From positions 1 through 64,000 of the forward strand of contig JAPETS010000042.1 of NCBI GenBank assembly GCA_026023565.1: DNA of 64,000 bases, given 5' to 3'. The position numbers were made by a program, and so were the translations under genes. The notes beneath the pieces were generated by a model, which did not search any database, had not been told where the DNA came from, and was given only the letters and a program-made list of their open reading frames with translations. Shown here in pieces: positions 1,178 through 58,526 of the stretch. The first letter of the stretch is position 1. Each line of letters opens with the position of its first letter. The DNA comes from Cirrosporium novae-zelandiae (Eukaryota).

Positions 1178-1900
1178 GTGGTTCTTTTTTCAGATTTCTC
1201 AGGAGCAAATCTATTCAATGTAATTATTATATTTCTGCTTGCATACCCTAGTACTTTTTTTATACGTAACTTTAGGATAGCCGTAGTGTCGATTAATCAA
1301 CTGCGGAACAAGTTGGCTGCTCCCGAAAGAGATATTATAATTATATTGCAGACTCTTTATGAAAAAATGAAAAATCTTGCGGTCCAGCGACAGAGACAAT
1401 CTACTCCGACTCAAATGGCTTGCTGGACGTTATATAGGAGGAGAGACTTAGCGGAATTGATTGAATATCTTACTGAACTTGTCTCTGCGCTTGTTGAACT
1501 TGTTCCTACAAAGCCTCAACAGCAGCTATGCAACGCTGAAATTGCAGAAATCAACAATAATAAAAGTCTGGTTGCTTTAAATACTATTCTACGTGAACCG
1601 GTTGGCGAGGATAACGCCCCTCTCGATAGCCTTCTTTTTGAAACTGTTACTTCAAAAATCGAAGAGCGGAGAGGCCCAGTGGCTATAGTTGAATAGAAGA
1701 GAAACAAAACTAATAGCGAATCTATTATGCACCAAGGAGATTATATCGCGAATGATTATCAAGGTCAAATACAGCCAAATGGAGGCAAGCACTTGTTAGC
1801 TGAAGACAATGAATTAGGGACAAACATATATTTCCATCAAGGCGATAGTTTTGGAAATACGAAATACCTTGTTGCTGGAAACTGCCTACGAGTTTGTTAA
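1178..1900 (+). pseudogene. HET-S-like HeLo-domain protein fragment with a C-terminal two-repeat prion-forming-like domain; premature TAG at 1694-1696
   Basis: LYEKMKNLAVQRQRQ..CWTLYRRRDLAELIEYLTELVSALVELVP..QQLCNAEIAEI..SLVALNTIL resembles the C-terminal half of HeLo domains. The same frame continues past the TAG: KRNKTNSESIMHQGDYIANDYQGQIQPNGGKHLLAEDNELGTNIYFHQGDSFGNTKYLVAGNCLRVC*. The HeLo N-terminus is not recognisable upstream. Confidence 0.7.
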
Positions 1901-2282
1901 GCCTCAGTACAATGAGGTTGGTACTAGCAATGGTATTTTCATTGGATAAAAAGTTTTTGGCTGGTCGATGTTCGGGAGGTAGCAAAAACACATGCTTTTT
2001 CCAGGTTATCCATTGCTCTTTTTCATCTAGGGGGTATGAAAAGTTGAGAGGCGTTCTATCCGGAGTCGATATCCAACCTGGGCCGATACTGGACTTGGGA
2101 ACAAATTCTTTCACTGTCAGAAGATCCCACGATCGGATAGTCCAACCGTCTAAGTCCGAAGCTAGAAATTCCTCATCTAGTGAATATGCCAATGCCATTA
2201 TCAGATCTGAAAAGCCTTTGTTAGCCGTAGGTACAAACGTACCTACATAAGATTCAACACGGACGTCAACCCGTTCTAGCCA
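1890..2282 (-). pseudogene. C-terminal WD40 fragment of a probable NACHT-WD (NWD-type) NLR
   Basis: The frame of ORF 1725..2198 extends upstream to KGFSDLIMALAYSLDEEFLASDLDGWTIRSWD (a degenerate GHS..V.AVAFSPDG..LASGS.D.TIRLWD repeat). It is followed by EQWITWKKHVFLLPPEHRP, which resembles the WIT...LWLPPEYRP cap of fungal NACHT-WD proteins. No NACHT domain is visible. Confidence 0.6.
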
Positions 2283-2447
2283 GAAGCAACAAACAATCCC
2301 ACACGCCTCTCAATACCACCTCGCAGCTCCCTAAACTCCCTCGCCGTCCCAAACCCCACAGCTCTTATATATATCTTATATGTCTCGGAAACCCGAAACT
2401 CCAAGCCTTTGGTGGGTATTCATGTATGGCGAGGAATGAAAGACAAC

Positions 2448-3476
2448 GAAGGGAATGGACCAGACCTTGATTGCCCAAGGTCTATTTGGTCTATATACAT
2501 ACGAACTTTTGTGGTGTTGAGGTTTGGGGGGATTTTGGAAGATGTTGGAGTTCGGAATTTTCGAATTTTGGGTTTAATCCAAAGCCGAAAAGGTATAATC
2601 TACCCCCGAATACCCACCCGTTGTGCCCCCCGATTACTCTACTGAAGCCTCCCTTAAGCACAGAGGCTCGCACTGAGTATTCTATTGAACATTTGACTAA
2701 ACTTTTAATTCTAGGTATCCAAAAACCCAAATTTGGCCTCGAATTCTCTACGTGTACGACTTTTTGTTACAATTGAGAAGCACTTGGGAATTGAGGCCAA
2801 TGAGTAGTAGAATGCCGCATGCCCAGCTAAAATAAAGCAGGTTATTCTAGCTTTCATGACATATGTCTAGCTAGCAAGCTGGTTAGGGGCACGTCGTTCT
2901 AGCTGGAGGCATATCATTTTAGTTGGAGGCCGCATGCCTAGCTAGCTAGAATAGGGCAAATTATTCTAGCTTTCATGACATATACCCAGCCAGCAAGCTA
3001 GTTAGGGGCATATTATTCTAGCTAGAGGCATATCATTTTAGTTGGAGGCCGCATGCCTAGCTAGTTAGAATCCTGTTATTCGAGCTGAAGGCTGCATGTT
3101 CAGCTAGAATATAGCAGGTTATTCTAATTTTTATGATATATACCTAGGTGGCTAGCTAGGGACATGTTATTCCAGCATGAGGCCGCATGCTTTGCTAGAA
3201 TGGAGCAGGTTATTCCAGTTTTTATGGCATATGCCTAGCTAGGGATATAATGTTTTAGCTGAAGGCCGTCTGCTCAGCTAGCTGGCTAAAATGCTGTTTG
3301 GTGCGGCAAGGGGAGGGGGGGGTGGAAGTTGCCGCCAAAGCTTCCGCTAAGACCTTGATTTGTCTATTATATAACTATTAACCGACCGATCAAACCTTTG
3401 TTACATCATGTAACGGACGTACTATAGACCGGTTAGACCAAAGCCCTCGGTCTGGTCTGTCTGGTCCATTCCCTTC
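2448..3476. mobile_element. Putative non-autonomous DNA transposon remnant bounded by a perfect 18-bp inverted repeat
   Basis: GAAGGGAATGGACCAGAC at 2448-2465 and its reverse complement at 3459-3476, with subterminal GACCAGACC motifs. Related sequence occurs at about 25081-25282. No target-site duplication is visible. Confidence 0.5.
2815..3290. repeat. Degenerate tandem repeat (about 119-bp period, decaying rightward), CTAG-rich
   Basis: Copies starting at 2842 and 2961 align over about 110 nt and differ only by C/T or G/A transitions. Confidence 0.85.
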
Positions 3477-4748
3477 CTTGATGACAGACAGGGCTTTTTT
3501 GGCGCTCGGAGCTCATCGTGGCTGTCCTGCTTAGAAGGATTCTGTTAGATAGTTTATCTAGCTACCTATACTATAATGGCTTCCATGGGGTTACAATGCT
3601 TTATGTAGTGACTTCGGTCCTACCCCTATCTCTCAACTGCGGTCAAAAAAAGGTACATTCCCCCTCCTCGTTTTTGACGGATTTGCTTATTGTTCTCTCC
3701 TTTCTTTTCATCCAGAGCTGGATTTCCTCGGACTCATTTTGAAGATGACGTGTAGGTCTAGACTAATTGTCTTTCAAATCTGAGTTCAGGCCTGGATCTG
3801 CTTTTTGCTTGTTGCGTGATTGTGGGTTGATTTCCTAGGTAAGCGGGCAGGTAGACAGGAGTAGTCTTAGATCGATGATGGAGGGGGGCCCAGCCTAACC
3901 TACCCTGACCTTACACGATTGTGCGTGTATACTTGTGTCAGGATAAATGGAGATCCTGAATGAGTTACTAGCCCAACCAACCAGCTTGCTAGCCACTAAG
4001 CTTCCCTCTCTCGAACATGTAATGGGTGCTTCTATACGTGGATCCATGAAACTCCCTCCTCTATTTACTTAACTGTACATGTGTGCATGTTAGATAAAGA
4101 AAGGCTTGATAGGGGATGGGGGTAGAACCTGGAGGGGGGTTCATCGTTTTGGATAATGACTTTGCTTAGCTTAGCCTTGCTTACCCCGCCTCGACTTCCC
4201 TGCGTTCCTGCGAGGGAAATTTCGGAAGGGATGGGATGGGTATTTTATTTCATTTGAATGGATGGATAAGTGGGATGGATACATAGAGAAACGCGCGCGG
4301 GGGAGGCTCTTTCTGCGGCAAGAACGAGGCAAACCAAACCAAGGCATAGCAGAGCAAGGCAATGCATGGGGTCGGAAAGGGTGGTAATGATGCCGTACGC
4401 CATATAAATGATAGGGGCATATCTTTCTCTCTTCCTTGCGTTTTCTTCGAGTATAGGTTCTGCAGCGCGCACAAAAAAATAAAATGCAATGCAACGTAAT
4501 GTACTGTACTATACAATCAATCAATCCGGCTCAAATATCTAGTTCATCTATGATTCATCCTCTCTGATCAATCAACCGCATTTTCGATTATTTTTTCCTC
4601 TTCTCCTCCATTTTCTGCATCTTTACCGTACGCACATTGGGTGATCGAGGGGATAGATAAATGGATGGATAGATAGACAAGTATGGAGGACGAAAACGGT
4701 ACACGAATCGTTTATGGCTGTAATTGCAAATGAAAACCAATCCTGATC

Positions 4749-5437
4749 CTATCCCTGTCTCTGTTTATGTTTTGGGTTTTTTTTGCTGTGGTGCGTGTAA
4801 AGAGGTGATTGTTAGTTTGGAATTTGATGCGATTATAGTAGTTTTTTCTTTCGTTTTGATAGAAAGAGAAATTGGGGGCGGGGGAGGGAGGGTGGAGAAT
4901 TGTGGGTAAGAACATACCAGATGATATACACGTATCCCTTTCTTCGTACGCTCTGTGGTGGAGATAGAACAGATTAGCATTAACTCTTTCGTTCTGCACG
5001 CCCCATCTATGCCTTCTCTTTCCCTTTCACCAGTTGTAGAACCCCGTCAACCCATCTACATCTATACCCATCCCCTCCCAAATCAACCAGCCAACCAAAA
5101 AAATCACAAAACACACAAATACACATACCTTACACCCATCACAAAGTTTCTTAACCGAACTCCGAACCTTCATCCCCCGTCTCTGTGTCGTCATTAACAC
5201 CTGTCTAGAAATAACACCATTTGCACCCCTCCATAGTAACGGTCTCGTAATAGATGTTCCAATTGTTCGCGACAATGCATGTGAGGACAACGAAGAGGAA
5301 GAAGAAGCGCTAGAACATGCTCTTCTCTGTAGGGACTGGAGGATTAGAGGTGCGAAGATGGATAAAGTGGATGAGAGGAGGGGGCGGGAGAGGCGGGGAG
5401 TAGCTCGCGCTACTGCTGCTGTGCGGAGGGAGAGCAT
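4749..5437 (-). CDS. RTC6: Mitochondrial ribosomal protein bL36m; exons 5129-5437, 4918-4952, 4749-4785
   Basis: The spliced product ends [38 protein letters not shown], the L36 signature, after an Arg/Ser-rich presequence. Introns are canonical GTATGT..CAG. Confidence 0.93.
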
Positions 5438-20856: not shown

Positions 20857-22757
20857 TCATCTAATCCTATTTTTCCCATCAAAATCGCTCAGCTCATCCA
20901 TCAGAGGTGCGACAATATTGCTATAGACCTCTTTTTGGAAATCTTCGTTATCCAACTTCATATCTTTATCGTGAATTTTGAACGGGCAATCTATGCAACA
21001 TCGGATAACATCATTAAATCGATCACCAGTTTGCGCGAGTATTATCTCGTCATGCATAAGGCGGCGCACCGTTTGTAGTTCTGTAAGAGAAGGAATTTTT
21101 TCCACGATATCCTCTGACTCCTGTAAAGAGATGATCGATCTACCAAGGCCGAGCTCGACAAGGCTCACACCAAGGTTATATAAAATATGGCTCTTGATTA
21201 GTCTATAAGATTCGAGTTCAATCCCATTATTTAGCGAGGCTTTTCGACCTGACCCAATCCTTTTGGAAATGAACGGATTCTGGTAATCGACTTCACTGGC
21301 GCCTTGGCAAGCAAGAAATATATCGCAATTCTGAAGATCATTATGCAACCATTCGGTACCGTCCAGCTGCAGAATACTTGATGCAATTGTAAGCGCAAGA
21401 TAATATCGATCCCTTACACCCATAGACCCCTTGCTCAGGCGGGCTTGGCTTCGCCCCAGGGCTCCACTAAGAGTCAATAACCGATTCTGTGAAATTGAGC
21501 CTCGTAACAGAACTTTGGTTGATGAGTAGACTCTATATACCCGCTGGTCATCAGTGAGGACGCCCAAGCATTCTTTAATGTCATTTTTCGTCTGGTTAAG
21601 AGCTTGACACCAATTAGTTATCGGGACATCATTTGTAGGCATGGAAATCGACGAGCGTAGAGGAAGCAATGCCAACTTATATGTAGCGGAGAGAACGTCA
21701 GCGAATCTGACGGCCTTCTTTCTTGGAGTTACTTGGGGGGGTTCCTTCTCCTGTTGAGGCATTGACAGCTTTGTATTAGGTTTATGTGGAGGCTCAATGA
21801 GTTCTATCTCGATCCTTCGGGATTTCCAGGCACAGATAAGTGCAGCCGGCTGGGGCTCATTCCATAGAAGAATACAGAACCTAGTATCTCGCTCCCCCCT
21901 TTCTAATAACCCTGGCCCAGGTCGAGGTTCGAGGTGTAGATTTGCGACGTGCTGACCCTGGCACTTGCATTTCCACGATCGCTTGATACAGACATTATAT
22001 AGACTTTGTGCCTGATGTCGGATGTGGGCAAAATCAAGAATAGGCCTGGAAGTTGTGCTACGTCGTTTTTGGCGGATAGGCTCTAGGCGTAGGCAGCCTT
22101 CGGTAAGGTTGAAAATCATTCTATTTGAGGGGTTGATTTGTTGAAGGAGTTCGTCGTATTCGGTTTTAGAGAAGCTGAATTTCAATCGCTGATATCCACG
22201 GTCAATGATGCTCCGGCTGGAGTGTATGCCCTTGAAAGTGGTCTTATTAGTTCTTATACTATGAATGAAGGATGGGCCGAAAACAGAATCAGTTCAACTG
22301 AGTGACTTCTAAAAGGATTAACTCCTACGTTCGGTGCTCTACATACCTTTGTTTCGACAACGGATAATTTCAAGAATTTATCAATCAACGTCTTAAAGTC
22401 ATTCAGCTCTGACTCAAGGTTTCTTATGGCCCGGAGATACATGGTATAGGACTCCTCCAAACGTTGTTTTAGTCGAGAATCGTACTCTGGGTCACTACGC
22501 CAAAGATCACTTCCTGGACTGTTAAGAAGAGCTGCGACATCCTCTTCAGAAGCCGGAATGCCATCTAGGAGCATCTCGAGAGAGTTTCTAAAGAAGATCC
22601 CCTCGCATTCCAACTTTGAGGCGTATCTTTCGAGTCTGCGGCGATATTTCCTCCATTCTTTGATCTTCTCCACACCTGTTGCCCATCTGTCTATTGCACC
22701 AACAACCAAAGGAAATATCGCTAGTGCCAACCCCGCAATTTCGACGCCGCTTGCCAT
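20857..22757 (-). CDS. Uncharacterised fungal protein with a HeLo-like N-terminus and a degenerate kinase-C-lobe-like (DUF7580-like) C-terminus; exons 22347-22757, 20857-22230
   Basis: N-terminus MASGVEIAGLALAIFPLVV..WRKYRRRL..E...FRNSLEMLL. C-terminus RYYLALTIASSILQL..TEWL..DIFL, ILYNLGVSLVELGLG, GDRFNDVIRCCI, FQKEVYSNIVAPL. An in-phase GTATGT..AAG intron joins the two ORFs into about 594 aa. Confidence 0.8.
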
Positions 22758-23191
22758 CAGGAAAGAGAATATTGAATAACGGGAAAGGAATTTAAATAGA
22801 AGTTAAAGGTCATAACCAACTGCCTCTCGAGCATACTTGACAAAAATCAACAGGCTGAAGTTCAGCCTTTTTTCGATGTGGGATACGGCCGGTTGGAACC
22901 AGTAACCACAATTATTCTCAAGGCTGGCCCCCAGGTCTACATACATTTCTATTGAATTTATGGCTATATAACTGGAAGAGACGTCAGGGGATAGTGCAAG
23001 TTTAGCTCGGTGCAGTACTGACGAAATTCAAGTTTGTTATGCGGACGTCTGAGAGTTATTGTGAGCAAGTCTGCCGATTTTGTCATTATCATATATTTAA
23101 TGTAGAAGAAGTTGGTTCCACGAAAAGACATAGCAAACTTAAGGAGAGGCCAGTACTAGGCAAGCTATCCATCAAGGCCACAATATCCAAT

Positions 23192-25096: not shown

Positions 25097-25282
25097 ACGG
25101 TCTATGGTAGACGGTCTATAGACCTTAGACCGACCAGACCAAGTTTTTCGATAGGCCAGATCGACCAGACCGAGCTTTTTGATAGACCGACCAGACCTTG
25201 ATTATCCAAGGTCTATTTGGTCTATATAAATGCGGATTATAAGGTGGGGGGGGGGGGGGCATATTTTTGTAGTGTTGAGGTT
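25081..25282. repeat. Dispersed repeat fragment related to the ends of the 2448-3476 element
   Basis: GACCAGACCTTGATTaTCCAAGGTCTATTTGGTCTATATA (about 25189-25228) is nearly identical to 2458-2497. There are several GACCAGACC units, and both loci are followed by TTTGT(A/G)GTGTTGAGGTTT. Confidence 0.8.
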
Positions 25283-39815: not shown

Positions 39816-42631
39816 ATGATCATCTTCGCAGGTCTCATCTCGGATCCTCCTTTAGGACACACGAGAGTCATTTCATCCTCACAACAAGAGGTACTCGAGC
39901 TTATTTACAGCCATCTACCTAAGTACCTCTGAAGATTCAACATTAGAGCTGAGCATTATCAGGTTAGATTTACAGTTCTCCTTCGCTCTAGCCGTTCATT
40001 TCCCGATCATGGCTGGGAGGTCGCCCTATGGCATAACCTCAATGCCCATCGAGATTGGACCGAATCTGTCTTGAAGTTGGAGACCTCTCCAATTCATCCC
40101 GTATGAACCACTTACTTTATTTCTGGCCTATTGTTTCTCTCATGCTATTATCAGTTTTTCCTAAATCCGAAAACTCGTGCGAACCTTTACCATCACCTAT
40201 TTGCCATAGACATTCCTGTTCCGCCAAGAGATGGGGCTCCCTACGCTTTCACCTTCAAATTCCGTACCACGTCGAGCGAGGACTGGTGCTGGGCAAATGA
40301 ACAATTTTCTACTACTGATGGTGAAATATACCTCCAACCAGAATCTATAGTCTCCCCATCCACACCAACGAATGCAAGAGAGAATCTAGATAGCTACATA
40401 CAAGATCTAAATAAATCGGTATTAGTTCAAAACGAACAGAGCCAATGTCCAGGGGCTAAGATATGGAGCATCACCGGAGATATCCAAGCTGCTGAAAATG
40501 GGAAATCCGGGACTGTGGCACTTACTCTAGGCCTACCGCGGCGTTTCACCCGATGGTTTTCGTTGGTCAGAATATGGAACCCCTGGTTGGCCCCAAGGCA
40601 TGGAAAAAGGGATTTTCTTCCCAGTGAAGATGCCGTTATGTGCTCTTTTCTGCGTTGGGACGGCTATCACCTACTCTTGCTGGCTATTAGTGGATTGGAT
40701 GATGTGCTGACCGTTTTCAAGCATGATGCCGATGGGAAGGTCATTGTTTCAGCACGCAATGACAATACCGAAGCTTCCAAGTTCCAGGTGGTTGCAGCCA
40801 TCGGGGAATCATTTGAATCAGCCAACGCTGCGGCGATGTACCATGCAAGAAAGCTAGCTATGGAGGTTAGGTCTATGCCGAATGACGTCGAGGTTGAAAT
40901 GAAATCTTTAATGGAAAAGGATATTGAGGCGAAATGGTTAGAAAATTGGTACGATGGTTTAACCTACTGTACATGGAATGCGCTAGGACAAAACTTGACC
41001 GAGGAAAAGATACACAATGCTTTGGACATATTGAAGGAAAACGGCATAGCGATAACAAATCTCATCATCGATGACAATTGGCAATCTTTGGACAACCAAG
41101 GACAGTCTCAATTTCAACGTGGGTGGACCAGATTTGAGGCAAACCCAGAGGGCTTCCCAAAAGGCCTCAAACATATGATACAAGAAATAAAAAGTAAGCA
41201 TCCAAAAATTGCACATATTGCTGTATGGCATGCCTTGCTAGGCTATTGGGGTGGCATATCACCTACCGGCGAAATTGCAAAACAGTACAAAACCAAAAAA
41301 GTTCGAAAGCAAGATATAGTGGCTGGTGGCGAGATGACAGCTGTTGATCCAGACGACATATCTCGTATGTATGATGATTTTTACCGGTTTCTCTCCGAAG
41401 CAGGTGTCGATTCCGTAAAGACGGATGCACAGTTCTTTCTTGACCTTTTGGATGATTCCGAGGACCGTCGAAGATTTATCACCGCCTATCAAGATGCATG
41501 GACAATCAACAGTCTACGATATTTTTCCACCAAGGCGATATCTTGCATGTCACAAACGCCTCAGATACTATTCCATACTCAACTTCCAACGAATAAACCT
41601 ACGCTTATGGTTCGAAACTCCGATGATTTCTTTCCAGATGTGCCTGAGTCCCACCCATGGCACGTTTTCTGCAACGCCCACAACTCACTGCTGACACAGC
41701 ACCTCAACATTCTTCCAGATTGGGACATGTTCCAAACATCACATCCATATTCATCATTCCATGCCGCTGCAAGATGTATTTCCGGGGGACCGATATATTT
41801 CACAGACGAGCCAGGAAAACACAACATCGATTTAATTAAGCAGATGACAGCTCAAACCCCGAGAGGCGACACCATAATTCTGAGACCGGGCTTGGTGGGT
41901 AAGACTATCGATGCCTACACTGGATACGATGAACAGCAGGTACTCAAAGTAGGAACATATACTGGAATGCAAAGTACCGGTTGTGGTATGATGGGTGTGT
42001 TTAATGTTGCTCGCCGTGCCATTTCTACTTTTATTAGATTGGAGGAGTTTCCCGGGGTTGAAAGTAGTGAGTACGTCATACATGAGTATACTACAAGGGA
42101 GGTTTCCAAACCTATGAAGAAAACCGACCGATTTGCATTGGTAGCTGTTGAAGTCGAAGTAAAGGGATGGGAGATATTGTCCGCACACCCAGTGCAGAAC
42201 TTTCAAAGGAGTGGATTAGACATAGAGTCAAAGATGGTTACTAAAGTTGCGAATCTTGGCCTACTTCACCAAATGACTGGGTCTACTGCTGTAGCTACAT
42301 CCGACATGTATGTGGAGGAATCTGGACGGTTGAGGATATGGATATCTCTGAAAGCTTTAGGCACACTAGGTTCGTACAAAGTGGGCTGGCGTATTGTCTG
42401 CAAGCTAACTCAGATATAGGGATATATATATCAACTCTTTCAAGTCTATCTGTCGAGGACGACATGCTGGTGACAATCCTCCAAGATGTTATCCCTCGCC
42501 ATACAATCAGAGCAAGAGCCGAGCAGGGGGTGCTGGAGATTGATGTGGAGAAGGCGTGGAAAGAGATGGGGCTGAACAGTGGTTGGAACAATGAAGTAGG
42601 CGTGGAACTATTTATCAAACTTCCAAGTTGA
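39816..42631 (+). CDS. GH36 raffinose synthase/seed-imbibition (Sip1)-like alpha-galactosidase, multi-exon
   Basis: YCTWNALGQ, IIDDNWQ, VWHALLGYWGG, VKTDAQ (nucleophile region), RNSDDFFP, PDWDMFQT, HAAARCISGGPIY.TD.PG. The start codon is uncertain (39771 or 39816). Confidence 0.9.
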
Positions 42632-54752: not shown

Positions 54753-56609
54753 TTATACATCCACATCCACATCCACCTCCACCTTCATAACCACAACATC
54801 AACACCCTCAAACCCAACACTCGCCGTAACCTTAACATCTCCCTTCCCCCCTCCAACCACTTCCCTCTGAACCAACAACCCATCAACATAAACCCCCCAC
54901 ACCCCCCCTTCCAACCCCCTAAACACCAAATCCATCGCCACCACTCTCTGATCCCAAGTCCTCATACTCAAAACCATAGCCCTCCTCCCCTGATCCCACA
55001 CCCCCCTCAAAAAATCAACCCCGCTCCCCAACCCCTCCGATCCATCAATCCACGGCTCCCCCGCAAGCTCCTCCCTCGTCCTCGGATGCTCCCACATAAC
55101 TTTTTGCCCATCCTTAACATTCAACCGCGCGTACCCGATCCCGGCGTTTCCGCTAAACGGATCCATGTGCGTCCACATGTCGATTTCGTCGCCCCCGTCG
55201 TTTCGGGGATAGTATAAGCCGCCGTTTTCCCATGAGGGATGCTGGTGCGTATCTGCGTGATGGAGTAGGGAATCTAGCTCCTGCTGCTTGCCGACCTCGG
55301 ATAGCCACTGCACAACGTAGCCTAGGATGGGCTTCTTGTAGAAGCGAGATTTGGTTTTGGGGTCTGAGCGGGATAGATCGCGGGCATGGGCGAGGGTTGA
55401 CGGGGAGGAGGGGTCGGCGTTTTCGTTGTCGATAAGTTTCTTGAGGTGGCTTGCCACGACGGGGGAATTTAGGATGGTTTCGTTGTTGTTGGAAATGGTG
55501 GTCAGGAAGCCAAGGGCTTGGCTCTCGTAGGCTGAATATACGGCGGATGAATTCCAAGAGTTCATGAAGGCGTTGGTCCTAAGCAAAAACATCTTATGTC
55601 AGATCTCTCTCCTACAAGGAGAACAAACTGGGGTTTGGGATGGGGTGATGAACCTACCATGCAGTAAATCCGATGTCCCCGGCCTGGGAAGTGCTCCCCT
55701 GCTTTACACGATACCAATCCGCGTGGAGACCAGTGGGATTCAACATGTGCTTGGCCTTGATAGCAGCCGAATACTTCTCAAGCACGGTATCAACGAAATT
55801 GGTTCCGTCCCGCACGTCATTATATCGCATAGCAATGATCTATAGGACCATCAATTAGCAAAGCTTCCATAAAATGACAGAAAAAAAAGATCCCCCCTTA
55901 CCGGAAACTGACTACAAACCACAAACACCATATTCGGCTCACAGCAAACCCCCACCCACCCATTCCTCTCCATCTCCGCTATAATCGCTCCCTGCAGACT
56001 TCGATTATCATACCTAAACGCCTCGGGGCCCATACCCCAAAAGATAGGATTCCAATTAAACACGATCGACCCCTCTTGCTCAAACTCCCCTTCGTCGAAT
56101 AACATCGCATACAAACTCGTCATCAGCAACAGATGGCCCGAATACATGATGTTTTCCCGACAGACCGGATCGGCCCACGGTTTGCGGAGCTCGGTGATGT
56201 CCGGGTCTACGAATTTTCCGGACTGGGAGGTGTTGTACCAGTAGCCCCAGACTTCTCGGCGGAGCATCTTGTGGATGAGCTGGCGGATTAGGAGTTTGAA
56301 CGTGGTTCGGAGAGCGGGCAGGCGGTGGTAGTGTGCCACCCCGCTTGCGTATACCATGGTGGCTAGTTGGTACCGGTACGCATCTAGGAACTCGTGCCCT
56401 GGGTCCTGGATCCCCATGTGTCGCCATTCTCCATCAATTTGGGTGGCGAGGTTGTGGAAGTGCCGGAGGTGGCCTGCCTGCTCGCGACTGAGCTTCGGGT
56501 AGGAATCTAAGGAGAATGGGAGTGTTTGGGGGATGTTCTTGTTGCTGTTGTTTGTTGGGCTGAGGCGCAATGACATAGCTGGCTGAGTTTCGGCCGTTGC
56601 TGCTGCCAT
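54753..56609 (-). CDS. Linalool dehydratase/isomerase (Ldi)-domain protein; exons 55902-56609, 55658-55839, 54753-55578
   Basis: AYRYQLA, WGYW, DPVCRENIMYSGHLLLM and GVCCEPNMVFVVC resemble the Ldi motifs ENIMYKGH and CEPDNYFVQC. Intron phases are consistent. Confidence 0.85.
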
Positions 56610-58526
56610 GTTTGATGGAAAAGCTTGAGGGAGGAATGAAATATGAGCTATTTGTTAACAATAGATCCACAGCTCTTATTTATATATTTATAAATATATA
56701 TGTATACATACCCAGAGCTATATGACGCTACTGTACATGTACCGTGGTACAGGTACAGCAAGCCCTGCATAATCCTCCCACAGTAAATCTGACCAACCCC
56801 ACATACTCCCATAAACTCCGAGCCCATCCCTATCCTAATTATCCTATCAACGAGCCAGCCCGGGTTCGGCCTAAATCCGACCGAGTTGATAATTGTAAGT
56901 GAAAAGTGAGAGAGTAAGACGAAAAAATAAGTTTTTGCCTAAACCCTTGGTTCTTCTTCATCTTCGGCCGACATAGGCCGATACACAACGATGCACACAA
57001 AAGGGGGATAGCATAATCTTGATAAGCCCGAACCCCGAACCGAGGAGGATTGGTTTGTTAGGGATTAGTTAATAAATAATTTGGGAAGGATTTTATTTTG
57101 ATGACGATGGGAATTGTGGGTGTTGTTTGTTTGCTAACTGAGCTTGGAAGTTCAAAGTAGAGGAGGGTAGGCCCTTTGCTGTAGATAGAAGGTGTAGGTG
57201 CACGGTCCACTAGGGTAAAGAGACCCAGCGGGACGTTTTAGTAGCCAGAATATGCATGTATGAATAAAGAAATATTATGGAAGAAGTTGGATTGGATTGA
57301 AAGGATAGCTGTTGTTAGAGGGCAAGCCAATATAATCTTACCTAACTAAGCCTAAATAAATAACAAATATACAACTCTTGAAATACACAAATAAAAGAAT
57401 CAAACGAACAGGAACAATAAAACAATAAAAGGGTAAAGATATCTTTTATTTCCTAAGTCTATCTGGGCGTACAGTTACCTATCTATATAAGTAGCTGTAC
57501 CCCATATCCAGGACTAGTACGCATGAGAAAAGAACTAACTCCGAGGTTCCGGAGTGCCGTCCCCTGTTCTCGCTTACCTAGAGCCTTCCGAATAGGGGTT
57601 AGCCCCCCATTCGGTGCCCTAGGCAGCCAAAAACAGGCAACTCTTGCACAATAGTTATTGAAAGTAGTGTGTGTATGGTTATGATTATGGATATGGATAT
57701 ATAGAATGCACTGGTGTTAACCTCCCCCAAATTTGTGGACTTATCTAATATCGGAGGCGCGGGGGGGGGGATCAACCGGCGTACTCCAATCGATCAGGCC
57801 CTTCAACAAAGCGCCTTCATCAGCTGTCGATAGGCAGGGATTAGTCAGCGGCTTTGACATTCGTCAGAGTTTCCAGGCGTACCTAGAGAATGATAAATAG
57901 GTATTGTTCTATCTAGGGATTATCTAGGGATTTTTGGAGTGGGGAAAGACAATTGTCACGGCTGTCGTGGTCGAGGACCCTGTCTCTCGGGAGTTGGCGT
58001 CTGGAATCTGAGCATAGTCTTCGTTACAGCAAAGTCAGGGCCGAAACACTGTGGCTCCGGTCGAAACCTTGGGAACCGAGGGCGGAATAGAGATGGGACG
58101 ATTGGTTGTGTTCTGAGGCTGAGGGTATATAGGCACATGTCTTCATTGCGCATTTAGACTCTACTTGAACAATCTATTTATCTTATGAGGAGCGCTCTTT
58201 GTCCTGTCTTGCGGATCATTAAGCTTCGAGAGACTCTTCATTACGACCTTCCTCTAAGTCAGACAGTCGCTCGCATCGAATTTAATAATGTGAATATTAC
58301 CGTAAACTTCTTGAATAGTCCTGCCCATCTCTAAGTTTAATACACTCTATATCCAACCCAGGCTGTCTCCAGCAGTCACTGGATGGTCTTGACATTCTCG
58401 CTCCTTTTTCGCACCGCATTTCCTTCATGCTATTGTTCCATGACTCTTTCCTTCCCCCTTCAATTCTCATCCTGCTCAAATACTTAAGCGAGCCGCCGTT
58501 CAACGCAGTCTGGAAGCACAAGGATA

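What the first reader, a model, noticed from the sequence alone, without database searches (positions are those of the whole stretch)
1178..2282. Relic het-S/nwd2-like immune gene pair: HeLo-amyloid effector tail-to-tail with a NACHT-WD-type C-terminus
Seen: the opposite strand encodes one degenerate WD40 repeat plus a WITW...LLPPEHRP cap, converging on the amyloid-like region. Known: fungal amyloid-signalling systems are often two-gene clusters in which an NLR (e.g. NWD2) carries one N-terminal copy of the motif that templates the adjacent HeLo effector. Inference: this is a decayed NLR-amyloid cell-death module whose NACHT domain, N-terminal motif and most WD repeats were lost where the inverted-repeat element now lies.
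Basis: partly seen in the sequence, partly recalled or inferred. Interest (0 to 1): 0.75.

Follow-up and report, generated by a model that had tools for sequence, protein, structure and literature searches.

The report
Decayed fungal HeLo-amyloid and NLR gene pair
Two broken gene remnants lie end to end in this fungal genome, a HET-S-like cell-death protein with its amyloid tail and the last part of an NLR immune receptor, and together they look like the wreck of a well-known two-gene fungal cell-death switch rather than anything new or working.

Summary
On the + strand, 1316-1693 encodes the last third of a HeLo domain (Pfam PF14479, E 7.3e-10, profile 128-203 of 205; HET-s/HET-S structures, E 3.9e-5). 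An in-frame TAG follows. Then comes a tail with two 21-residue HET-s-related (HRAM-like) units, each N-x8-HQGD, with glycines 35 residues apart (36 in HET-s). On the - strand, 1863-2276 encodes one degenerate WD40 repeat plus a WITW..LLPPEHRP cap. Its cap-bearing relatives are NACHT-WD40 NLRs: 6 of 6 tested carry NPHP3_N and NACHT. One relative, P0011, begins with N-x8-HQGD directly before its NACHT, as NWD2 does with its r0 motif. Shuffled N-termini gave such a match in 4 of 2000 sets. Both remnants are dead. The first two thirds of HeLo are not detectable, a stop sits inside repeat 1, and no NACHT or further WD repeat exists anywhere in the 64 kb. The neighbouring inverted-repeat element (2444-3480) is a clean insertion with an 8-bp target duplication, 135 bp beyond the break, so it did not remove the NLR. 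Whether homologues are neighbours elsewhere could not be tested. Verdict: a relic member of the known HET-S/NWD2 kind, of low to moderate interest.

The parts
1316..1693 (+). Remnant of the C-terminal third of a HeLo domain (HET-s residues about 112-207 and the linker). The frame is open from 1151, but 1151-1315 shows no HeLo similarity.
   Evidence: Pfam PF14479 E 7.3e-10, profile 128-203 of 205. PDB 2wvo/2wvn/2wvq E 3.9e-5 to 8.4e-5.
1694..1696 (+). In-frame TAG stop. It falls at position 5 of amyloid repeat 1, a core hydrophobic position in HRAMs.
   Evidence: Translation. HRAM numbering from PMC4518210 passages. No plausible intron removes it (my reading: the only GT..AG pair nearby would be 38 nt long and out of frame).
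1682..1744 (+). HRAM-like repeat r1 (AIVE*KRNKTNSESIMHQGDY), containing N-x8-HQGD.
   Evidence: G at position 19, Q at 18, hydrophobic at 16, T at 10 (features).
1745..1786 (+). 14-residue loop between the two repeats.
   Evidence: Loops of 6-15 residues appear in the published HRAM table.
1787..1849 (+). HRAM-like repeat r2 (KHLLAEDNELGTNIYFHQGDS), containing N-x8-HQGD.
   Evidence: 7 of 21 positions are identical to the N-terminal motif of NLR P0011.
1850..1900 (+). C-terminal tail FGNTKYLVAGNCLRVC and the TAA stop.
   Evidence: It resembles the YGGKGFWD / YGSGVFF tails after r2 in the published table.
2106..2276 (-). One degenerate WD40 repeat (2106-2219), preceded by the end of another (2220-2276).
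   Evidence: HMMER scan: most of the 150 listed hits match P0001 residues 31-68. BLASTP to P0138 and P0011. The Pfam WD40 model itself does not hit.
1863..2105 (-). Linker and C-terminal cap of a NACHT-WD40 NLR. The core WITWKKHVFLLPPEHRP is at 1962-2012.
   Evidence: Cap alignments to P0138 (E 3.9e-8), P0111, P0086, P0028 and P0011. tblastn of P0086 residues 1014-1160 of 1162 maps to 2219-1863.
2444..3480 (.). Non-autonomous inverted-repeat element next to the relic, not part of the gene pair. It has 22-nt terminal inverted repeats, internal tandem repeats of about 90-119 bp, and flanking 8-bp direct repeats ATGAAAGA (2436-2443) and ATGACAGA (3481-3488).
   Evidence: Flanks read. A related end lies at 25189-25234.

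Best explanation
This is the wreck of a HET-S/NWD2-type amyloid-signalling pair.

How an intact pair works (established knowledge): the NLR senses a ligand and oligomerises. Its short N-terminal motif (r0) folds into a beta-solenoid amyloid. That amyloid templates the two matching repeats (r1, r2) at the C-terminus of the neighbouring HeLo protein, whose N-terminal helix then inserts into the membrane and kills the cell.

What survives here: on one strand, the last third of the HeLo domain and an r1-loop-r2 tail of a Q18/G19 (HRAM4-like) variant with the signature N-x8-HQGD. On the other strand, converging on it, the last WD40 repeat and C-terminal cap of a NACHT-WD40 NLR.

Neither remnant can work. 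The HeLo piece lacks the membrane-inserting N-terminal two thirds and a start codon, and it has a stop inside r1. The NLR piece lacks its motif, its NACHT and all but one repeat.

Shown: the identity of each fragment, their truncation, and their convergent juxtaposition. Inferred: that the two were a cognate functional pair, and that the loss was a deletion or rearrangement rather than the transposon insertion next door.
For: - HeLo identity: Pfam above cut-off and HET-s/HET-S structures.
- Position of the motif: the PDB alignment predicts r1's glycine near query residue 189; it is at 196.
- Spacing: the glycines of the two units are 35 residues apart, against 36 in HET-s.
- Published HRAM features met: G19, Q18, hydrophobic 16, T or L at 10, and the G[DN] bigram.
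- One catalogued HRAM protein ends its repeats ..IQGDY and ..IQGDS-YG, as this tail ends ..HQGDY and ..HQGDS-FG.
- The cap of the - strand piece aligns colinearly with the C-termini of long proteins. 6 of 6 tested have NPHP3_N and NACHT.
- P0011 was found through the WD/cap fragment alone. It has N-x8-HQGD at residues 14-26, immediately before its NACHT. P0077 has ..HQGN at 43-46.
- Shuffled N-termini of the 150 hits gave at least one such match in 4 of 2000 sets.
- Literature: 98 of 155 HRAM-bearing HeLo-type genes have an NLR gene next door (passages of PMC4518210). Orientation varies between species, and nwd2 is inactivated by a transposon in het-s strains (passages of PMC3321046).
- Truncation: no HeLo hit in 8 upstream + strand ORFs. 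194 of 195 tblastn HSPs from the 150 NLR/WD hits fall in 1782-2366(-); the other is one weak HSP between 18.5 and 19 kb on the + strand.
Against: - No close relative of the HeLo+tail or of the tail alone was found by word-based searches. The amyloid reading therefore rests on pattern, not on a scored match.
- Pfam's HET-s_218-289 model does not hit the tail.
- Several HRAM features are not met: position 8 is N, not hydrophobic, in both repeats; position 15 is I or Y, not R or K.
- HQGD and HQGN are absent from the 2015 HRAM catalogue (0 occurrences).
- The closest cap-bearing NLRs include ones with their own effector domains: HET in P0028, PNP_UDP in P0086 and P0109. The lost NLR therefore need not have been of the motif-only, NWD2-like kind.
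- Published pairs are described as divergent or co-directional in the passages I read. Convergent pairs were not mentioned there.
- Adjacency of homologues could not be tested. The one full-length relative recovered with context (L003) carries a HET domain and has no HeLo neighbour among the ORFs of 70 aa or more that I listed for 6-17 kb of the locus.
Confidence: 0.62

Rival explanations
1. Both fragments are real pseudogene pieces but were never partners. An NLR 3' end and a HeLo-amyloid 3' end were brought together by deletion or rearrangement in a fast-turnover region, and the lost NLR carried its own effector domain.
For: - Cap-bearing relatives include HET-NACHT-WD (P0028) and PNP_UDP-NACHT-WD (P0086, P0109) proteins.
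- Both genes are truncated, so at least one rearrangement happened.
- A mobile element sits alongside.
- 57 of the 155 catalogued HRAM HeLo-type genes have no adjacent NLR.
Against: - NLR genes are a small share of a fungal genome (my knowledge, not measured here), so chance adjacency to the one kind of gene known to pair with them is unlikely.
- Relatives of the fragment do include motif-only NLRs with the same N-x8-HQGD signature.
Confidence: 0.27
2. The HeLo-amyloid gene is still functional. Its first exons lie upstream, beyond recognisable similarity or beyond the window, and the TAG is spliced out or read through.
For: - The frame is open for 181 codons in a 39% G+C stretch.
- The two motif units differ at synonymous sites, which fits past selection on the protein.
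Against: - No HeLo similarity in 8 upstream + strand ORFs at E <= 10.
- The first ATG in the frame is at residue 73.
- The TAG lies inside r1, and no in-frame intron of plausible length spans it (my reading).
Confidence: 0.06
3. The tail's two HQGD units are a chance or low-complexity feature and not an amyloid signalling motif. Only the HeLo and NLR fragments are real.
For: - No scored match of the tail to any family or protein.
- Incomplete fit to the HRAM pattern.
Against: - A repeated 4-mer appears in only 263 of 20000 shuffles.
- The position after the HeLo domain and the spacing match HET-s.
- The same N-x8-HQGD occurs at the N-terminus of a NACHT-WD NLR.
Confidence: 0.05

Closest known systems
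HET-S / NWD2 of Podospora anserina (HeLo pore-former with an r1-r2 prion-forming domain, plus the adjacent NACHT-WD40 NLR with an r0 motif)
   Same: - HeLo domain followed by two 21-residue pseudo-repeats at the same distance from the domain and from each other.
- An adjacent NACHT-WD40-type NLR gene.
- Precedent for decay of one partner: nwd2 is inactivated by the REPA element in het-s strains.
   Different: - Here both genes are truncated and dead.
- The orientation is convergent with abutting 3' ends.
- The motif is of a Q18 type with H17 and N8, not the N3 / hydrophobic-18 canonical HET-s motif.
- The NLR's N-terminus is lost, so the r0 cannot be seen.
HRAM4-type HET-s-related amyloid motifs (Daskalov, Dyrka and Saupe 2015, PMC4518210)
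   Same: - G at position 19, Q at position 18, hydrophobic residue at 16, and a two-repeat architecture on a HeLo-type protein.
- A catalogued protein with ..IQGDY / ..IQGDS-YG endings.
   Different: - HQGD and HQGN are not present in the catalogue.
- N, not a hydrophobic residue, is at position 8, and there is no R or K at 15.
- The class assignment rests on the text description only. The logos are figures and were not seen.
Motif-only NACHT-WD40 NLRs P0011 and P0077 (unnamed database proteins found)
   Same: - The last WD40 repeat and the W-I/V-T..LWLP.EY[RQ] cap align with the window's fragment.
- The N-terminal HQG[DN] motif matches r1 and r2 of the window's tail.
   Different: - They are full length (1031 and 1247 aa) with NPHP3_N and NACHT.
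- Identity to the fragment is only about 31% over the aligned part.
- Their genomic neighbours are unknown.

Membership tests
HeLo domain (Pfam PF14479) | Significant match to the family profile | tested here: met
   E 7.3e-10, 39.4 bits against a cut-off of 23.2, but only profile positions 128-203 of 205. HET-s/HET-S structures at E 3.9e-5.
HeLo domain (Pfam PF14479) | N-terminal part including the membrane-inserting helix, needed for pore formation | tested here: not met
   No HeLo hit at E <= 10 in 8 upstream + strand ORFs, including 1151-1350. No start codon before residue 73 of the frame.
HET-s-related amyloid motif (HRAM) | Two about 21-residue pseudo-repeats at the C-terminus of a HeLo-type protein, separated by a short loop | tested here: met
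   r1 1682-1744, 14-residue loop, r2 1787-1849. Glycines are 35 residues apart, against 36 in HET-s.
HET-s-related amyloid motif (HRAM) | G at 19; hydrophobic residues at 5, 8, 10, 16, 18 (or Q18 in HRAM4); R or K at 15 | tested here: inconclusive
   Met in both repeats: G19, Q18, hydrophobic 16, T or L at 10. Not met: N at 8 in both, I or Y at 15, and a stop codon at position 5 of r1 (A in r2). No profile score could be computed, because the published motif set could not be used as input.
HET-s prion-forming domain (Pfam PF11558, HET-s_218-289) | Match to the canonical (HRAM1) profile | tested here: not met
   0 families for the 67-residue tail at E <= 10.
NACHT-WD40 NLR (NWD / HET-E type) | NACHT (NPHP3_N) nucleotide-binding domain | tested here: not met
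   Absent from the window. tblastn of 150 NLR/WD hits gave HSPs only in 1782-2366(-), plus one weak HSP between 18.5 and 19 kb. No Pfam hit in ORFs on either side of the inverted-repeat element.
NACHT-WD40 NLR (NWD / HET-E type) | WD40 repeat array followed by the C-terminal W[IV]T..LWLP.EYR cap | tested here: met
   One repeat and the cap remain. They align colinearly with the ends of P0011, P0028, P0086, P0111 and P0138. 6 of 6 cap-bearing full-length hits tested carry NACHT.
HET-S/NWD2-type two-gene amyloid signalling cluster | The NLR carries one N-terminal copy (r0) of the effector's motif | not testable with these tools
   The N-terminus of the window's NLR is lost. Indirect evidence only: relative P0011 starts with N-x8-HQGD (shuffle control 4 of 2000).
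HET-S/NWD2-type two-gene amyloid signalling cluster | Effector and NLR genes are immediate neighbours, here and in relatives | tested here: inconclusive
   Here the remnants abut. In relatives this could not be tested: no genome is held, no close homologues were found by word search, and the metagenome scan gave only a HET-NACHT-WD relative.

The most novel reading that the evidence does not exclude
N-x8-HQG[DN] (N8, H17, Q18, G19) is an uncatalogued HRAM subfamily, shared by HeLo effectors and motif-only NACHT-WD40 NLRs such as P0011 and P0077. On this reading the dead pair here is the null haplotype of a presence/absence polymorphic cell-death locus, like het-s/nwd2, so other strains of the species carry the working pair between the same flanking genes.
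Probability: 0.25. Interest if true: 0.45.

Novelty: new member of a known kind. Interest (0 to 1): 0.3.

Why it matters
NLR-amyloid cell-death modules are thought to evolve by rapid birth and death. A relic in which both partners are recognisable adds one example of joint decay, as argued for het-s/nwd2. It marks a locus, next to the mitochondrial L36 and threonine dehydratase genes, where related strains may still hold a working pair. It also points to an HQG[DN] motif variant shared with two full-length NLRs that is absent from the 2015 catalogue. It does not change the understanding of the system.

Tried and rejected
- Word-based homologue searches found nothing: P0001 against longer proteins, the HeLo+tail read through against 111-356 aa proteins, and the tail against longer proteins.
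- The protein atlas on the tail returned bacterial hypothetical and RHS-repeat clusters at 0.90-0.94 with low shared-feature counts. I treat these as composition look-alikes, not relatives.
I repeated it on N-terminal parts.
- No whole genome is held, so NLRs starting with the motif could not be sought in this genome.
- Sequencing runs: no RNA holder is listed. Only one DNA run, probably the source, holds the stretch.
- The metagenome scan with P0011 gave 23 loci. Only L003 covers most of the protein (residues 44-993, 42% identity). It is a HET-NACHT-WD gene broken into several frames, so it says nothing about HeLo adjacency.
- RIP as the cause of decay was rejected: TpA/ApT is 0.82-1.00 and (CpA+TpG)/(ApC+GpT) is 1.16-1.19 over 1151-2300, within the window's 5-95% range.
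- An intron at 1220-1275 (GTAATT..TTTAG) was considered as a way to join an upstream exon. It is 56 nt, and the frame it would join to has no start codon (my reading).
- No hit among the 150 carries a HeLo domain that could have served as a probe for the missing N-terminus.
- Earlier findings of this scan: nothing by place, sequence or words.
- A profile of the published HRAM repeats was not built, because sequences taken from a paper may not be typed into tools.

Full report
**Setting.** The window is fungal. From about 5 kb onward it carries ordinary eukaryotic housekeeping genes: threonine dehydratase, PIG-U, pescadillo, aldehyde dehydrogenase, tyrosyl-tRNA synthetase, a MutS homologue and others. 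G+C is 38-39% in the first 2 kb, against about 45% overall.

**The + strand remnant.**
- The frame 1151-1693 is open for 181 codons.
- Pfam finds HeLo (PF14479) at E 7.3e-10, 39.4 bits against a cut-off of 23.2. Only residues 69-141 match, and only to profile positions 128-203 of 205.
- Read through its stop by reference, the stretch matches the solved HeLo domains of HET-s/HET-S (2wvo, 2wvn, 2wvq; E 3.9e-5 to 8.4e-5). Query 56-154 aligns to chain residues 112-207. Window 1316 therefore corresponds to about HET-s residue 112.
- The roughly 110 residues that should precede it include the N-terminal helix that makes HET-S a pore-former (passage of PMC4518210). They are not detectable: 8 upstream + strand ORFs, including 1151-1350, gave no HeLo hit at E <= 10.
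- The first ATG in the frame is at residue 73.

**The tail.**
- After an in-frame TAG (1694-1696) the frame continues for 67 codons to TAA at 1898-1900.
- It holds MHQGD (1727-1741) and FHQGD (1832-1846).
- I numbered the units as in PMC4518210, which puts G at position 19 (passages). The units are r1 = AIVE*KRNKTNSESIMHQGDY (1682-1744) and r2 = KHLLAEDNELGTNIYFHQGDS (1787-1849). A 14-residue loop separates them, and a tail FGNTKY... follows.
- The glycines are 35 residues apart. In HET-s they are 36 apart (supplementary table 2 of that paper, part 1 of 5 read).
- The PDB alignment predicts r1's glycine near residue 189 of the frame. It is at 196.
- Features met in both units: G19, Q18 (which the paper gives as the mark of HRAM4), a hydrophobic residue at 16, T or L at 10, and the G[DN] bigram.
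- Features not met: N instead of a hydrophobic residue at 8, and no R or K at 15. In r1 the stop codon itself sits at position 5.
- One catalogued protein ends its repeats ..IVIQGDY and ..LIQGDS followed by YGSGVFF, close to ..IMHQGDY and ..FHQGDS followed by FGNTKY here.
- HQGD and HQGN do not occur in the two supplementary files of that paper (0 occurrences).
- Pfam's canonical HET-s_218-289 model does not hit.
- A repeated 4-mer arises in 263 of 20000 shuffles of the tail.
- The two units differ at synonymous sites (cac/cat, gga/ggc). They are therefore not a recent DNA duplication.

**The - strand remnant.**
- P0001 (1728-2309) has no Pfam hit and no word-sharing relative among longer proteins.
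- The full HMMER scan of 1.84 billion representatives gives 1332 matches at E <= 1e-3, 84 at <= 1e-10, and a best of 1.6e-23.
- Those scores are inflated. Most hits match residues 31-68, a single WD40 repeat, many times over in proteins of 1000-2000 residues.
- The informative part is the cap. Residues 71-140 searched alone against the 150 listed hits match P0138 (E 3.9e-8), P0111 (6.3e-6), P0086 (6.9e-5), P0028 and P0011 (3.5e-4 each), mostly near their C-termini.
- A loose pattern for W[IVL]..P.[YFH]R finds 17 of 150. One of these (P0075, at residue 137) looks like chance.
- BLASTP aligns the last repeat, the linker and the cap colinearly with P0138 (34% identity over 119 columns, E 3e-13 pairwise) and with P0011 (31% over 113, residues 873-985 of 1031).
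- I scanned the N-terminal parts of six full-length cap-bearing hits. 6 of 6 have NPHP3_N and NACHT. P0086 and P0109 also have PNP_UDP, P0028 has HET, and P0103, P0077 and P0011 have no domain before the NACHT.
- The fragment is therefore the 3' end of a NACHT-WD40 NLR and not of a generic WD40 protein.
- The repeat is badly worn: KGFSDLIMALAYSLDEEFLASDLDGWTIRSWD departs from the usual GHS..V.SVAFSPDG..LASGS.D.TI+LWD (the consensus is recalled).

**A link between the two remnants.** P0011 was found only through the WD/cap fragment. It starts MDLAVPYSRDITSNCFGDNARIHQGDNHY, and its NPHP3_N/NACHT region begins at about residue 70.
- N-x8-HQGD sits at residues 14-26.
- In HRAM numbering P0011 has I5, F10, R15, I16, Q18 and G19.
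- It shares N8, G11, N13, H17, Q18, G19 and D20 with the window's r2, which is 7 of 21 positions.
- P0077 has ..GHNSFLHQGNT before its NACHT.
- N-x8-HQG[DN] occurs once in the first 60 residues of the 150 hits and nowhere else in them. Shuffling those N-termini gave at least one match in 4 of 2000 sets.
- NWD2-like NLRs that carry this motif and this cap therefore exist. This is indirect support, since the window's own NLR has lost its N-terminus.

**Extent of the loss.**
- tblastn of all 150 hits against the whole window gives 195 HSPs. 194 lie in 1782-2366 on the - strand. One weak HSP lies between 18.5 and 19 kb on the + strand.
- No NACHT or WD hit appears in - strand ORFs at 2310-2766 or 3422-5046. 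No Walker A or WD signature fits an NLR elsewhere.
- The only other [FILMVYW][HQ]QG[DN] match in six frames is FHQGD at 41525, inside the raffinose-synthase-like ORF. I take it as chance.
- P0086 aligns to its second-last residue at window 1863, and the + strand frame stops at 1898-1900. The two coding remnants therefore abut or overlap by up to about 35 bp, tail to tail.

**The inverted-repeat element.**
- 2444-3480 has 22-nt terminal inverted repeats (95% complementary), a second subterminal pair (2479-2495 with 3423-3439), and internal tandem units of about 90-119 bp.
- Its flanks are ATGAAAGA (2436-2443) and ATGACAGA (3481-3488), an 8-bp target duplication matching at 7 of 8 (read).
- A 46-bp copy of its end lies at 25189-25234 (91% identity).
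- An element with its own target duplication is a simple insertion. It begins 135 bp beyond the end of the open frame, and nothing NLR-like lies on its far side. It therefore does not mark where the NACHT and repeats were lost. The break is near 2280-2310, and its cause is unknown.
- The dinucleotide indices give no RIP signature over 1151-2300.

**Comparison with the known system.**
- In Podospora, het-S and nwd2 are adjacent and divergently transcribed.
- In other species the pairs are adjacent but orientation varies.
- In het-s strains nwd2 is inactivated by the REPA transposon, and the authors argue that loss of one partner frees the other to decay (passages of PMC3321046).
- Of 155 HRAM-bearing HeLo-type genes, 98 have an NLR gene immediately next door, with a single motif at its N-terminus (passages of PMC4518210).
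- HRAMs on HeLo and HeLo-like proteins usually occur as doubles (passages of PMC9815663).
- The present locus fits this picture as a doubly decayed member.

**What remains open.**
- Adjacency of homologues was not testable. Word-based searches found no close relative of the HeLo+tail.
- Names and accessions of the hits could not be looked up.
- The metagenome scan with P0011 recovered only one near-full-length relative, L003. It has a HET N-terminus and broken frames, and no HeLo neighbour among the ORFs I listed.
- No RNA run is listed.
- The atlas search on the tail gave only bacterial composition look-alikes.
- The logos that define the HRAM classes are figures, and the supplements of PMC9815663 were not opened. 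The assignment 'HRAM4-like' therefore rests on the text alone.

**Verdict.** The core interpretation, a relic het-S/nwd2-like pair, is the best-supported reading at about 0.6. The main rival is that two real but unrelated remnants were juxtaposed, at about 0.27. The claim about the inverted-repeat element is not supported. This is a dead member of a well-described kind. The HQG[DN] motif variant and the possibility of an intact allele elsewhere give it modest residual interest.

Noticed in passing
window 2444-3480 and 25189-25234: A roughly 1.04-kb non-autonomous element with 22-nt terminal inverted repeats, internal tandem repeats of 90-119 bp and an 8-bp target duplication (7 of 8 matching). 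An 8-bp duplication would fit a hAT-type element (recalled). A 46-bp copy of its end (91% identity) lies at 25189-25234, amid GACCAGACC-rich repeats and next to a run of about 13 G.
   Followed up: partly
window 20860-22293 (-), with the ORF 22257-22802 (-) upstream: A 478-codon ORF with DUF7580 (E 4.6e-21). The 182-codon ORF just upstream has no Pfam match. I did not establish whether the two form one gene or have any link to cell-death proteins.
   Followed up: partly
window 54756-56654 (-): Two adjacent ORFs match linalool dehydratase/isomerase (PF18566). One covers profile positions 1-159 (E 8.8e-82) and the other 216-316 (E 3.8e-21). This is probably one gene with an intron, and I know this enzyme family mainly from bacteria (recalled).
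   Followed up: no
L003 9198-13096 (+) and 13650-16193 (-): A metagenome contig with a HET-NACHT-WD40 relative of P0011 (42% identity over residues 44-993). Its coding sequence is split over several frames between about 9.5 and 11.6 kb, by introns or decay. It ends in the same W-I-T..WLPSEYRP cap. An 847-codon ORF whose N-terminus looks HET-like by eye (not scanned against Pfam) converges on it.
   Followed up: no
window 1728-1900 (-): The - strand frame stays open for about 55 codons past the expected NLR C-terminus, running antisense through the amyloid-motif tail. The NLR remnant therefore has no stop near its natural end.
   Followed up: no
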